A stretch of DNA of 64,000 nucleotides, from NCBI GenBank assembly GCA_950097015.1, contig CATNEN010000039.1, positions 2,294,001 to 2,358,000 on the forward strand. The letters are read 5' to 3'. Below are positions 59,601 to 60,663 of the stretch, piece after piece. Origin of the DNA: Macrostomum hystrix (Eukaryota; Animalia; Platyhelminthes). Below the pieces are notes generated by a model. It did no database searches and was not told the DNA's origin. It saw nothing but the letters and a program-made list of their open reading frames with translations. The position numbers were made by a program, and so were the translations under genes. Positions within the stretch are counted from its first letter, which is position 1. The number at the start of each line of letters is the position of its first letter.

Positions 59601-60663
59601 AAAGCTTCCTCGGACACTCCTACCAAAGCGTCCACTGACCCTTCCACCAAAGCGTCCTCGGACACTCCTACCAAAGCGTCCTCTGACATTCATACCAAAG
59701 CGTTCTGACATCTTCTGACCATCCTACCAATGTATCCTACTAAGCCTAAAAAGCACAGGCATAAGACTCATCACGCATGCTGACCGCCCGCCTAAACTTT
59801 ATCTGCCTCCCTCAGGCCCTGCCCTACGTCGCCCTGCTAATATTGATGCTATTCTTTATCTACGCCGTCATCGGCATGCAAATGTTCGGCAAGATCCAAC
59901 TGTCGGTGGAAACAGAGATTAATCGCAACAATAATTTCCGCACATTCTTCTCGGCCACGCTGGTGCTATTCCGCTCGGCCACTGGCGAGTCATGGCAACA
60001 GATTCTGTTGGACTGCGTCAGTGGTAGGTGCATCTGTTGTTCTCCTTGTTTGTATTTGCTTTTTACGAGCTATCGATAAATTTATTAATATTATTTTCCA
60101 ACAGTATCGAAAATTTTTTTCGCTAACTAAAAAACTGATTTTTACTCATGAAACCAATGACAAAGCGAAAATGCGTCTCTCAGTGCTGCTTCTGCGACCC
60201 TTACTGTCTGTCTCAGAAAGTGAGCGAGCATCGCCATGGGCGGTCGAGACGCCCCCCCTATAGGGACAATTGTCTAACACAGCGCGCATTTTCAGACCCA
60301 CTCAAGGTGAAGTGCGAATTGTCCTCACCGGACAAAGCCAAGTCGCGGCAGCCGTCGAGGCAGCAGCCGGAGTCGTGTGGAAGCTCCATCGCATATCCAT
60401 ACTTTATCAGCTTCTACATGCTGTGCTCATTCCTGGTGAGTTTTGAAGCCGCTGAGCAGAACTTTACTCACGTAATCTCCCCCCGCCACTCCCATTCCCT
60501 TTTGCAACTCCAACACGAAAACGTAGCCGAGATAAAGTGCGACTCTACCAGCGACGCCTACCAGGAATCGAAAAAAAGCAACAAGAGCAATACGGAACCC
60601 AGCTGCCAGCAGCTTATCGGATACCCCTATTTTATCTCATTCTACATCATCTGCTCCTTCCTG
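26075..60663 (+). CDS. Cav1: L-type voltage-gated calcium channel alpha-1 subunit (Cav1 / CACNA1C-D / egl-19-like), multi-exon, 3' end beyond window
   Basis: Four S1-S6 repeats with S4 motifs ([60 protein letters not shown]). Pore loops CITMEGW/ILTGEDW/STFEGWP/SATGESW give EEEE. Cav1-type IIIS6 and III-IV linker ([40 protein letters not shown]). All exons GT-AG and phase-compatible. Start codon uncertain (ATG 25859 or 26075). Confidence 0.96.
27420..28810. repeat. 21-bp intronic minisatellite
   Basis: (TCACTCTGATTCCTAGATCTG)n grading into (TCACTCAGGCTCCTAGATCCG)n. Confidence 0.95.
29245..29785. repeat. 13-bp minisatellite
   Basis: (AAATCCAAATCCC)n. Confidence 0.9.
30275..31193. repeat. 14-bp minisatellite
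   Basis: (CTGATTATCTCAAC/GC)n. Confidence 0.9.
32112..32570. repeat. Degenerate TGTCA repeat
   Basis: TGTCATTACC/TGTCACTCTC units. Confidence 0.75.
33037..33320. repeat. 15/45-bp tandem repeat
   Basis: TCATCGTTTATCTC and TCGATCTATTCTCTCACAATCGTTTATC units. Confidence 0.8.
33756..33861 (+). CDS. Cav1 exon, IS1
   Basis: ttcag|[29 protein letters not shown]...AFL|gtgagt; 106 nt. Confidence 0.93.
33891..34710. repeat. 15-bp minisatellite filling a Cav1 intron
   Basis: (AGAGATCT/CGTCAGTT)n. Confidence 0.95.
34751..35165 (+). CDS. Cav1 exon, IS2-IS5
   Basis: cgcag|[20 protein letters not shown]...HVTQL-T|gtgagt. Confidence 0.95.
35166..36220. repeat. 14-17-bp minisatellite starting at a splice donor
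   Basis: GTGAGTGCCCTGGA grading into (GAGTGAGAGTCCTAGA)n. Confidence 0.93.
36228..37385. repeat. 28-bp purine-rich minisatellite
   Basis: (GAGAGGAGAGGGAATTAGAGGAAAAGGG)n. Confidence 0.95.
37935..38190 (-). mobile_element. SINE copy (same family as 39937-40308)
   Basis: Shared core GCAATTCTGC.CATTTCGCTGACTCCTGAGCACACAC...GTCAGGCAGTGTACAC. Confidence 0.7.
39282..39666 (+). CDS. Cav1 exon, domain I turret, pore loop and IS6
   Basis: [24 protein letters not shown]...[10 protein letters not shown]|gtgagc. Confidence 0.93.
39762..39877 (+). CDS. Cav1 exon, I-II linker with AID
   Basis: [40 protein letters not shown]|gtgagc. Confidence 0.93.
39937..40308 (-). mobile_element. Full-length tRNA-derived SINE with target-site duplication
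   Basis: On - strand: A box TGGCAGAGCGG (40300-40290), B-box-like GTTCGATT (~40255-40248), (TTA)n tail. Direct repeat CTGGCGTTAGATAAT at 39922-39936 and 40309-40323. Confidence 0.75.
40601..40648 (+). CDS. Cav1 48-nt I-II linker exon
   Basis: tttcag|[17 protein letters not shown]|gtgagt; phase 1/1; completes the AID terminal E. Confidence 0.8.
41487..41561 (+). CDS. Candidate Cav1 75-nt cassette exon in I-II linker
   Basis: Pyrimidine tract ctgtctcctctcgcttcgcag|[25 protein letters not shown]|gtgaga; symmetric phase 1/1, no stop. Confidence 0.5.
42494..42590 (+). CDS. Cav1 I-II linker exon
   Basis: tttcgcag|[16 protein letters not shown]...ILHTI-AC|gtgagc; supplies the required phase 1 to phase 2 bridge. 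Confidence 0.8.
42748..43035. repeat. Dispersed ~290-bp repeat, copy 2
   Basis: Similar to 7640-7925. Confidence 0.75.
43152..43502 (+). CDS. Cav1 exon, IIS1-S3
   Basis: [30 protein letters not shown]...LGISVL-AG|gtaatt. Confidence 0.95.
43625..43868 (+). CDS. Cav1 exon, IIS4-S5
   Basis: [25 protein letters not shown]...SLITVFQ|gttcgc. Confidence 0.95.
43996..44332 (+). CDS. Cav1 exon, domain II pore loop and IIS6
   Basis: [14 protein letters not shown]...[13 protein letters not shown]...|gtatgc. Confidence 0.95.
44370..44560 (+). mobile_element. Degenerate SINE copy, opposite orientation
   Basis: GCGCAGCCGCGGAGAGAAGGCTTG...GGCAGATGTACACCTGTG matches the reverse complement of the core. 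Confidence 0.5.
44635..45002 (+). CDS. Cav1 exon, II-III linker and IIIS1
   Basis: [34 protein letters not shown]...LAAEEP...RNK|gtgcgc. Confidence 0.92.
45068..45566. repeat. 21-bp intronic minisatellite
   Basis: (TGTACATCCTAGTGTTTGTGA)n. Confidence 0.93.
45613..45672 (+). CDS. Cav1 60-nt exon, IIIS2
   Basis: ttcag|[20 protein letters not shown]|gtaagt. Confidence 0.92.
46030..46136 (+). CDS. Cav1 mutually exclusive exon A, IIIS2-S3 loop and IIIS3
   Basis: ttcag|[37 protein letters not shown]|gtaggt; 107 nt. Confidence 0.88.
46338..47669. repeat. 21-bp minisatellite between mutually exclusive exons
   Basis: (GAATCCCGAATCTGAATGACA)n. Confidence 0.95.
48102..48208 (+). CDS. Cav1 mutually exclusive exon B, IIIS2-S3 loop and IIIS3
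   Basis: aacag|[37 protein letters not shown]|gtgagt; 107 nt. Confidence 0.88.
49054..49141 (+). CDS. Cav1 exon, IIIS4
   Basis: [29 protein letters not shown]|gtgagc; 88 nt. Confidence 0.95.
49290..49475 (-). mobile_element. SINE fragment
   Basis: GTGTGTACATCTGCCCTGACTT...GTCAGGCAGTGTACAC core. Confidence 0.6.
49546..49853 (+). CDS. Cav1 exon, IIIS5 and pore loop
   Basis: [16 protein letters not shown]...NFDNV...STFEGWP-AC|gtaagt. Confidence 0.95.
49940..50141 (+). CDS. Cav1 exon, IIIS6
   Basis: LLYTSIDS...[16 protein letters not shown]...CELDKNQ|gtgaga. Confidence 0.95.
50662..51138 (+). CDS. Small secreted protein (158 aa) with CxxxC...CxxxC motif, nested in Cav1 intron
   Basis: Signal peptide [26 protein letters not shown]3-rich coding style; TATAAA 50569-50574; AATAAA 51284. 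Confidence 0.75.
   Translation: MLSKPLHPVLLILLLLHLSHLLSAFYPDADDMNMDFLKKEDSNAGPDMQRMMLMNTEDPKLRAEAEEAFQEILRARRLSKLQVCRRECVNEHEAAAEFASCNARCEATQPPGEYEELRTLHGSSDSADVKKPVDEKADKVEKKSGDHPAKKPKDSGEL
51427..53471 (-). CDS. PYROXD2: Pyridine nucleotide-disulphide oxidoreductase domain-containing protein 2 (phytoene dehydrogenase-like); exons 53471-52571, 52372-51926, 51812-51427; 577 aa
   Basis: FAD motif [84 protein letters not shown]. Basic N-terminus resembles a mitochondrial presequence. Splice phases 1/1. Confidence 0.93.
54794..55957 (+). CDS. crb: Short Crumbs-family protein (signal peptide, LamG-like domain, 2 EGF, Thr/Pro stalk, TM, GxYxP and ERLI tail), 387 aa, intronless
   Basis: LamG motifs VTDGRWHSV and GLRGCL; EGF repeats CLCANGGSC and PCSGHGHC...[14 protein letters not shown]; tail [10 protein letters not shown]...[16 protein letters not shown] 56274. 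Confidence 0.85.
   Translation: MRPSQRPCWLFALLALLIQSVAANIATFNVSDITKWTRANATGVPVGLVTVFELRTSHPGGSVWGLFGLSTDNSSDIIYLKIGLTGPNLTLDGSFINSPRQIAANVTDGRWHSVKIHLYANTSSSTVSVDGISQLQWNAHSWTLINWTVMTFGGVNGSDGLRGCLANASVTRIFNNDVLNATSVVEFSGTVNATACIEDPCLCANGGSCLPSPRWNLHSGCNCTGTGFGGDFCLVAKDFCNASGSGGDPCSGHGHCISIAKNETFICNCTDGYIGSNCSTPPATIPSSTTMPTPTTTPTPTITTLSTARQPATPAPQSDTRLVVGLVVGLLLLLLAGTGAGLAFKIVRDRRKDSGVYKPYDREVGGVKSGQRSAQDILRPPNEERLI
56835..57069 (-). mobile_element. SINE copy, truncated
   Basis: Near-identical to 39997-40255 with an internal deletion. Confidence 0.75.
57133..57291 (+). CDS. Cav1 exon, III-IV linker and IVS1
   Basis: cgcag|[18 protein letters not shown]...[19 protein letters not shown]|gttcgc. 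Confidence 0.95.
57391..57501 (+). CDS. Cav1 exon, IVS2
   Basis: [37 protein letters not shown]|gtgagt. Confidence 0.94.
57586..57669 (+). CDS. Cav1 84-nt exon, IVS3
   Basis: [28 protein letters not shown]|gtgagt. Confidence 0.93.
57833..57910 (+). CDS. Candidate Cav1 78-nt cassette exon in IVS3-S4 linker
   Basis: ctgat branch-like motif and long pyrimidine tract ...ctccag|[26 protein letters not shown]|gtatgc; phase 0/0. Confidence 0.5.
58734..58856 (+). CDS. Cav1 exon, IVS4
   Basis: [41 protein letters not shown]|gtgatt. Confidence 0.94.
58963..59710. repeat. 24-bp intronic minisatellite
   Basis: (CCAAAGCGTCCTCTGACACTCCTA)n. Confidence 0.9.
59816..60023 (+). CDS. Cav1 exon, IVS5 and pore loop
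   Basis: [25 protein letters not shown]...[19 protein letters not shown]|gtaggt. Confidence 0.95.
60296..60435 (+). CDS. Cav1 mutually exclusive exon A, domain IV extracellular loop and IVS6 start
   Basis: ttcag|[10 protein letters not shown]...[22 protein letters not shown]|gtgagt; phase 1/0. Confidence 0.88.
60527..60663 (+). CDS. Cav1 mutually exclusive exon B, domain IV extracellular loop and IVS6 start
   Basis: cgtag|[12 protein letters not shown]...[22 protein letters not shown]|gtaagg; phase 1/0. Confidence 0.82.

What the first reader, a model, noticed from the sequence alone, without database searches (positions are those of the whole stretch)
60296..60663. Mutually exclusive exons swap the domain IV extracellular loop and a dihydropyridine-site residue in IVS6
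Seen: two tandem paralogous exons of 140 and 137 nt, both phase 1 to 0, 91 nt apart, so including both frameshifts. A encodes ...[21 protein letters not shown] and B encodes ...[21 protein letters not shown], with dissimilar loops between the conserved Cys. Known: the IVS6 Tyr-Met pair (FYML) is part of the mammalian Cav1 dihydropyridine site, and turret splicing in snail Cav3 alters ion permeation. Inference: splicing may toggle drug or toxin sensitivity and pore properties. I know of no vertebrate mutually exclusive pair at this position.
Basis: partly seen in the sequence, partly recalled or inferred. Interest (0 to 1): 0.75.

Follow-up and report, generated by a model that had tools for sequence, protein, structure and literature searches.

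The report
Swappable pore-loop exon, flatworm calcium channel
A flatworm L-type calcium-channel gene carries two old, intact copies of the exon for an outer pore loop and half of a pore helix, each found spliced on its own in RNA, which likely tune channel gating or surface delivery and are less likely to act as the drug-sensitivity switch first proposed.

Summary
Observation confirmed. Exons A (60296-60435) and B (60527-60663) are tandem paralogues encoding the domain IV P-S6 loop and N-half of IVS6 of a Macrostomum-type Cav1. Including both puts a stop at B's third codon. RNA contigs show upstream-to-B and B-to-downstream joints, and in one run a short, low-depth A-to-downstream piece; no A-to-B or upstream-to-A joint was seen. 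The same A-then-B pair sits in a sister paralogue of M. lignano, so it predates that gene duplication. Similar doubles appear in an unnamed animal, probably a monogenean, and, with another boundary, a nemertean. Exclusivity is likely steric (candidate branch point 35 nt from A's donor), backed by the frameshift. The Met/Ile swap does hit a dihydropyridine contact (Cav1.1 Met1366), but constant exons already carry Gln939Glu and Met1057Val, and Ile/Val is the usual invertebrate state. The EEEE filter is not swapped. More likely the swap tunes gating or trafficking: B gains a conserved N-glycosylation sequon and loses a near-invariant Gly. Not found in the papers searched. The scan noted Cav1 exon pairs in other genomes; this sequence gave no look-alike.

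The parts
59816..60023 (+). Constitutive upstream exon U: IVS5, P1, domain IV filter Glu, P2; ends in phase 1
   Evidence: Best matches are Cav1 chains, E 6.5e-38; donor at 60024 shown by the joint in run X1
60296..60435 (+). Exon A, 140 nt: 20-residue loop between the two core Cys, then N-half of IVS6 with Met at 4i12 (codon 60418-60420)
   Evidence: Sequence; aligned to Cav1.1 1349-1371; joined to the downstream exon in one 54-nt piece of run X5, depth 2
60436..60526 (+). 91-nt A-B intron, GT..AG, never seen spliced; open in frame if retained
   Evidence: no A-to-B joint in 5 runs
60465..60471 (+). Candidate branch point for B (TACTCAC, A at 60470): 35 nt from A's donor, 57 nt before B, followed by a pyrimidine tract inside a 65-nt AG-free zone
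   Evidence: Motif scan only; not mapped experimentally
60527..60663 (+). Exon B, 137 nt: 21-residue loop, Cys-Gln in place of the usual Cys-Gly, N-half of IVS6 with Ile at 4i12 (codon 60646-60648)
   Evidence: Joint 60023-60527 in X1; joined to the downstream exon in X2 and X5; B type in 5 of 5 M. lignano orthologue records that reach this exon
60580..60588 (+). N-x-S sequon in B's loop, absent from this gene's exon A
   Evidence: the Asn is invariant and followed by x-S/T in 3 of 3 Macrostomum B exons
49546..50141 (+). Constitutive IIIS5 to IIIS6 exons carrying Glu at the Gln939 position and Val at the Met1057 position of the DHP site
   Evidence: Met-Met in a vertebrate Cav1.1 record

Best explanation
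Two intact tandem copies of the exon for the domain IV outer loop and first half of helix IVS6 are each spliced alone to the same next exon in this flatworm Cav1 gene, and the choice likely tunes gating or surface delivery of a channel that would stay calcium-selective. Shown: the anatomy, the stop on double inclusion, spliced B, a weak spliced A piece, and the same pair in a sister paralogue. Inferred: U1 on A's donor and U2 on B's branch point, 35 nt apart, cannot build one spliceosome, so A and B are not joined; stray double inclusion or double skipping shifts the frame and would be cleared by nonsense-mediated decay. Inferred: B appears to be the main form of this gene, while paralogue contigs in the same runs showed A-type exons. 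B adds a glycosylation sequon, replaces the near-invariant Gly after the second loop Cys with Gln and puts Ile-Ile for Met-Leu at the III-IV fenestration; these would alter loop packing, trafficking and S6 movement. Any change in drug or toxin block would be a side effect.
For: Joints: U-to-B in X1 (depth 6.2, GT..AG); B-to-downstream in X2 (17.6) and X5 (5.3); A-to-the-same-downstream-start in X5 (2); no A-to-B joint in 5 of 5 runs. Age and selection: last 20 residues of window A match paralogue-2 A at 18 of 20 but window B at 14; window B matches paralogue-2 B at 19; the window gene groups with its M. lignano orthologue at 99/95 support. Steric rule: about 50 nt needed, 35 nt abolishes assembly in a mammalian system; tropomyosin precedent (PMC6692369, passage). 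Read-through records imply A-B introns of about 52-58 nt in two other cases (my count). In 3 of 4 constitutive introns of 84-99 nt a branch motif lies 65-67 nt from the donor. Sequon in 3 of 3 B exons against 11 of 85 other loops; Gly after the Cys in 84 of 85. N-glycosylation sites affect gating and surface level of rabbit Cav1.2 (PMC8802068, passage; not shown for this loop alone). EEEE filter is constitutive.
Against: A use rests on one 54-nt piece with 30 and 24 letters on its sides, under the tool's 31-letter bridging bar, and no U-to-A joint was seen. No A-type record of the M. lignano orthologue was found (0 of 5). Contig depth cannot rank isoforms, and these runs hold only contigs. The branch point is a motif guess; its AG-free zone (65 nt) barely exceeds others (61, 58, 56), and flatworms may splice very short introns (recalled for schistosomes). 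Paralogue-2 exon A also has a sequon, so the glycan is not a fixed A/B difference. No functional data exist for either form.
Confidence: 0.58

Rival explanations
1. Exon A is a near-silent leftover in this paralogue: after gene duplication this copy took over B and its paralogues kept A, so the pair now works between genes rather than within one.
For: 5 of 5 orthologue records use B; window A lies mostly in unspliced contigs; paralogue contigs laid at 80% showed A-type tails only.
Against: A keeps its frame, both splice sites and 18 of 20 residues shared with paralogue A exons; X5 holds an A-to-downstream piece with no mismatch; paralogue 2 keeps an intact B.
Confidence: 0.18
2. The pair is a ligand-sensitivity switch: Met versus Ile at 4i12 and the outer loop change block by dihydropyridines, natural fenestration ligands or peptide toxins.
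For: Met1366 lies beside the DHP ester (PMC7898392, passage); first copy Met, second copy Ile or Val in the window, paralogue 2 and P0232; calciseptine binds outer loops of repeats III and IV of Cav1.2 (PMC10761187, passage).
Against: Gln939Glu and Met1057Val are constitutive; schistosomes are described as refractory to DHPs (PMC6796685, section 3.1); both nemertean forms carry Ile; no natural ligand is known to me.
Confidence: 0.14
3. The loops change ion preference, as alternative turrets do in invertebrate Cav3.
For: Swapping D4L6 loops changes Na versus Ca current in Cav3 chimeras (PMC7382465, passages).
Against: That effect is tied to extra cysteines; A and B each have only the two core Cys, similar length (20, 21) and near-neutral charge; all four filter Glu are constitutive.
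Confidence: 0.06
4. A serves mainly to regulate output: slow or unproductive splicing of the 503-nt stretch between U and B holds back or destroys transcripts.
For: Unspliced contigs cover parts of 60080-60555 in 4 of 5 runs; double inclusion gives an immediate stop.
Against: Genomic DNA or ordinary pre-mRNA could give the same contigs; protein-level conservation of A is not needed for this role; no A-to-B joint was seen.
Confidence: 0.04

Closest known systems
Vertebrate Cav1.2 mutually exclusive exons 8/8a (IS6), 21/22 (IIIS2), 31/32 (IVS3)
   Same: Tandem duplicated exons, one used at a time, swapping a membrane segment; 8/8a changes DHP sensitivity (PMC3596553, passages).
   Different: Here the swapped piece is the domain IV P-S6 loop plus N-half of IVS6, constitutive in Cav1.2 by that review; the host channel's DHP site is already altered.
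Invertebrate Cav3 exons 12a/12b (D2L5) and cnidarian Cav3 gene pairs with alternative D4L6
   Same: Alternative extracellular loops over the pore; D4L6 is the same loop (PMC7382465, passages).
   Different: Cav1, not Cav3; no extra cysteines; the cnidarian D4L6 alternatives are separate genes; no permeation data here.
Lineus longissimus Cav1 RefSeq isoforms with two D4L6 forms
   Same: Two versions of the same loop and IVS6 N-half in one gene: 10 and 3 of 15 listed records, 2 fragments.
   Different: Divergence starts inside the P2 helix, upstream of the Macrostomum boundary, and both forms carry Ile at 4i12; probably an independent duplication. Genomic exons not seen.
Alpha-tropomyosin exons 2/3 steric exclusion
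   Same: Branch point of the second exon close to the donor of the first (PMC6692369, passage citing Smith and Nadal-Ginard 1989).
   Different: Here the branch point is only predicted, and a frameshift adds a second safeguard.

Membership tests
Cav1 (L-type) alpha-1 subunit | Four repeats, best match to Cav1 | tested here: met
   93% identity to the M. lignano Cav1 orthologue over 222 columns
Cav1 (L-type) alpha-1 subunit | EEEE selectivity filter | tested here: met
   Glu in DI, DIII, DIV and DII
Cav1 (L-type) alpha-1 subunit | Intact mammalian DHP site | tested here: not met
   Gln939Glu, Met1057Val; Thr935 and Tyr1048 kept; common in invertebrate Cav1, so not a bar to membership
Tandem-duplicated mutually exclusive exons | Adjacent homologous exons of equal phase with canonical sites | tested here: met
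Tandem-duplicated mutually exclusive exons | Each exon spliced alone in RNA | tested here: inconclusive
   B met on both sides; A on its 3' side only, one short piece at depth 2
Tandem-duplicated mutually exclusive exons | Never joined to each other in stable mRNA | tested here: inconclusive
   No A-to-B joint in 5 shallow contig sets; joining gives a stop
Tandem-duplicated mutually exclusive exons | Both copies conserved in relatives | tested here: met
   M. lignano paralogue 2 has A then B; A of the direct orthologue not seen
Sterically enforced exclusion | Mapped branch point under about 50 nt from the upstream donor | tested here: inconclusive
   Motif at 35 nt; no lariat data
Cav3-type turret selectivity switch | Alternative loops differing in extra cysteines | tested here: not met
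   Two Cys per loop in both exons
Cav3-type turret selectivity switch | Changed Na versus Ca current | not testable with these tools
   Needs patch clamp

The most novel reading that the evidence does not exclude
The domain IV outer loop and upper IVS6 are a recurrent splice-switch site of spiralian Cav1 channels: an old flatworm pair (Met first, Ile second) reaching into parasitic flatworms, with an independent pair in nemerteans, lets muscle and nerve build L-type channels that differ in gating, glycan and fenestration pharmacology, giving a natural test of what this loop does in Cav1 and isoform-specific handles on flatworm channels.
Probability: 0.25. Interest if true: 0.65.

Novelty: new variant of a known kind. 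Interest (0 to 1): 0.42.

Why it matters
Alternative exons in Cav1 genes are familiar, but not at the domain IV pore loop and IVS6, which is constant in vertebrate Cav1.2. Two natural, long-conserved versions in one gene give a clean test of what this loop and the upper fenestration do for gating and trafficking. Gene models already go wrong here: M. lignano records fuse both copies, and a monogenean record seems to. If parasitic flatworms share the pair, work on their Cav1 channels must take the isoform into account. It is not a new kind of system, and the drug-switch reading is weak.

Tried and rejected
No genome is held for this window, so paralogue loci and the rest of the intron after B could not be read. 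No run was on record as RNA; spliced joints show that X1, X2 and X5 hold RNA. U had no same-gene cover in X2, X3, X4 or X5 (a filter drops records), so missing U-to-A joints there say nothing; lack of cover after 60663 is likewise not used. RNA structure as the exclusion device: 60010-60700 folds at z -0.70; A's donor can pair with the candidate branch point (-7.5 kcal/mol) but z is +0.55, and such a complement occurs at 2 of 20 donors: unsupported. Metagenome survey (best 80 of 167 confirmed stretches): 37 loci span P2 to the downstream exon; 36 have one copy, 0 two, 1 unparsed; several are near-duplicates or intronless, and none is known to be a flatworm. Isoform clusters outside Macrostomum: 1 of 12 shows two loop forms in one species (at most 15 members listed each). 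Doubled IVS6 motifs in P0008 and P0010 are exact repeats with flanks, taken as model artefacts. The exon-B word search missed P0009 although it shares a long stretch, so its blank is weak. P0232's second copy is no closer to B (13 of 20) than to A (15 of 20): common origin with the Macrostomum pair is not shown. The splice scorer preferred a donor 3 nt upstream for U-to-A; RNA supports 60024. No structure was predicted. No supplements were read; figure alignments in PMC8980814 and PMC6796685 are not held and may show flatworm IVS6 residues.
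Full report
What is there. The window holds most of a Cav1 alpha-1 gene on the + strand, from about 26200 to 60663. Exon U (59816-60023) matches domain IV S5 to P2 of Cav1 chains best. Two candidate exons follow: A, 60296-60435, and B, 60527-60663, both phase 1 to 0, with canonical sites and a 91-nt gap. They are homologous (E about 2-3e-9) and their shared tail has changed mostly silently. Joining them gives a stop at B's third codon; skipping both also shifts the frame. 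The next exon lies beyond the window. The closest named proteins are from Macrostomum lignano; the window gene groups with Mlig000393 at 93% identity over 222 columns, support 99/95, in a tree of 9 rows (five more intended rows did not parse and were left out).

Use in RNA. Five runs were listed, none on record as RNA, all kept as contigs, from two studies. All five were laid. X1 joins U to B across 503 nt with GT..AG and no mismatch. X2 and X5 join B to a downstream exon that encodes the rest of IVS6. X5 also holds a 54-nt piece joining A's last 30 bases to the same downstream start, at depth 2, which is below the tool's bridging bar. No U-to-A and no A-to-B joint appeared. Unspliced contigs cover parts of 60080-60555 in four runs. 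Contigs of paralogous genes in X2, X3 and X4 carry A-type tails with other loops and other downstream exons. So B is clearly used and A probably used; depth cannot give a ratio.

Conservation. All 5 of the 7 orthologue records that reach this exon use B. Two models of a second M. lignano paralogue fuse an A-type and a B-type copy in the same order, and a third reads through the short intron between them. Classes hold across genes: window A shares 18 of 20 tail residues with paralogue A and 14 with its own B; window B shares 19 with paralogue B. The exon duplication is therefore older than the gene duplication. A profile of three B exons against 1.84 billion representatives gave 16 hits; one unnamed record, P0232, reads through two tandem copies, Met first and Ile second, though common origin is not shown. 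A Cichlidogyrus model seems to fuse two copies, the first degenerate or mis-spliced, the second with Ile-Ile; Dugesia P0291 has Met. Lineus longissimus isoforms show two loop forms that diverge earlier in P2, both with Ile. Against wide spread: 1 of 12 non-Macrostomum clusters and 0 of 37 metagenome loci show a double.

How exclusivity probably works. The best branch motif for B has its A at 60470, 35 nt from A's donor and 57 nt before the acceptor, in a 65-nt AG-free zone. In mammalian assays about 50 nt are needed and 35 nt abolishes assembly (PMC6692369, passage). In 3 of the gene's 4 constitutive introns of 84-99 nt a motif lies 65-67 nt from the donor. The read-through records imply gaps of about 52-58 nt in two other pairs (my count, assuming frame is kept). 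This favours steric exclusion with frameshift decay as backup, but the branch point is unmapped, and the AG-free zone is only slightly longer than others. RNA pairing was not supported.

What the swap changes. A's Met aligns to rabbit Cav1.1 Met1366, which lies near the DHP ester (PMC7898392, passages); Ile there is one of three snail changes whose joint reversal raised isradipine potency about tenfold (PMC8980814, passages). But this channel has Glu at Gln939 and Val at Met1057 in constant exons (Met1057 taken from an ungapped mapping and a vertebrate record), and Gln-to-Glu is reported to lose binding (PMC6796685, section 3.1 read). Among 85 distinct loops from 117 other records, position 4i12 is Val 42, Ile 26, Met 12, Thr 3, Ala 2. 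The filter is EEEE and constant; both loops have only the two core cysteines described for all such channels (PMC4436565, passages), unlike the Cav3 loops that shift selectivity (PMC7382465, passages). What sets B apart is Gln for a Gly found in 84 of 85 other loops and a sequon kept in 3 of 3 B exons against 11 of 85 others; paralogue-2 A has a sequon too. Models link the 4i12-4i19 turn of IVS6 to gating (PMC10510735, passages), glycosylation affects Cav1.2 gating and surface level (PMC8802068, passage), and a peptide toxin touches repeat IV outer loops (PMC10761187, passage). I therefore commit to tuning of gating or trafficking; this step is inference.

Novelty. Searches for this pair found nothing: searches gave 0 papers; listings gave no paper describing it by title or abstract start, and the passages I read in four of them (PMC3596553, PMC6796685, PMC7382465, PMC8980814) did not. 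The library lacks most subscription journals, and I saw no supplements. A Cav1.2 review lists drug-site segments other than IS6 as constitutive (PMC3596553, passages). PMC5378181 (passages) gave only general branch-point distances. Earlier scan notes report Cav1 exon pairs in other genomes; exon B had no look-alike. Verdict: a real, old, apparently undescribed exon pair; a new variant of a known kind; interest 0.42.

Noticed in passing
window 46030-46136 and 48102-48208: A second tandem exon pair in the same gene, 107 nt each, phase 0 to 2, 65% alike, encoding the IIIS2-S3 linker and IIIS3. M. lignano models P0002, P0005 and P0006 fuse both copies; P0003 and P0004 use the first.
   Followed up: partly
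window 60436-60526: The A-B intron has no stop and keeps the frame if retained; read-through records exist for two other pairs, though such records are found because they read through.
   Followed up: no
window 60444-60454: An 11-base stretch just after A's donor recurs with one change after the A donor of a paralogue contig in run X4 (loose end); a possible splicing element, untested.
   Followed up: no
window 60021-60025: U's donor has a second in-frame GT 3 nt upstream; only the one at 60024 was seen used.
   Followed up: no
window 59002-59710 and 60833-64000: Intronic tandem arrays: a 24-bp unit and a 15-bp satellite of over 211 copies that starts 170 nt after exon B.
   Followed up: no
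runs X2-X4 laid on window 60376-60443: At least three other Cav1-like transcripts with A-type tails and different loops, pointing to an expanded Cav1 family in this organism.
   Followed up: partly
proteins P0045 and P0160 (Lineus), P0293 (Cichlidogyrus), P0232 (unnamed): Doubles of the same Cav1 segment in other animals; the Cichlidogyrus first copy has a very long loop. Genomic structure not seen.
   Followed up: partly
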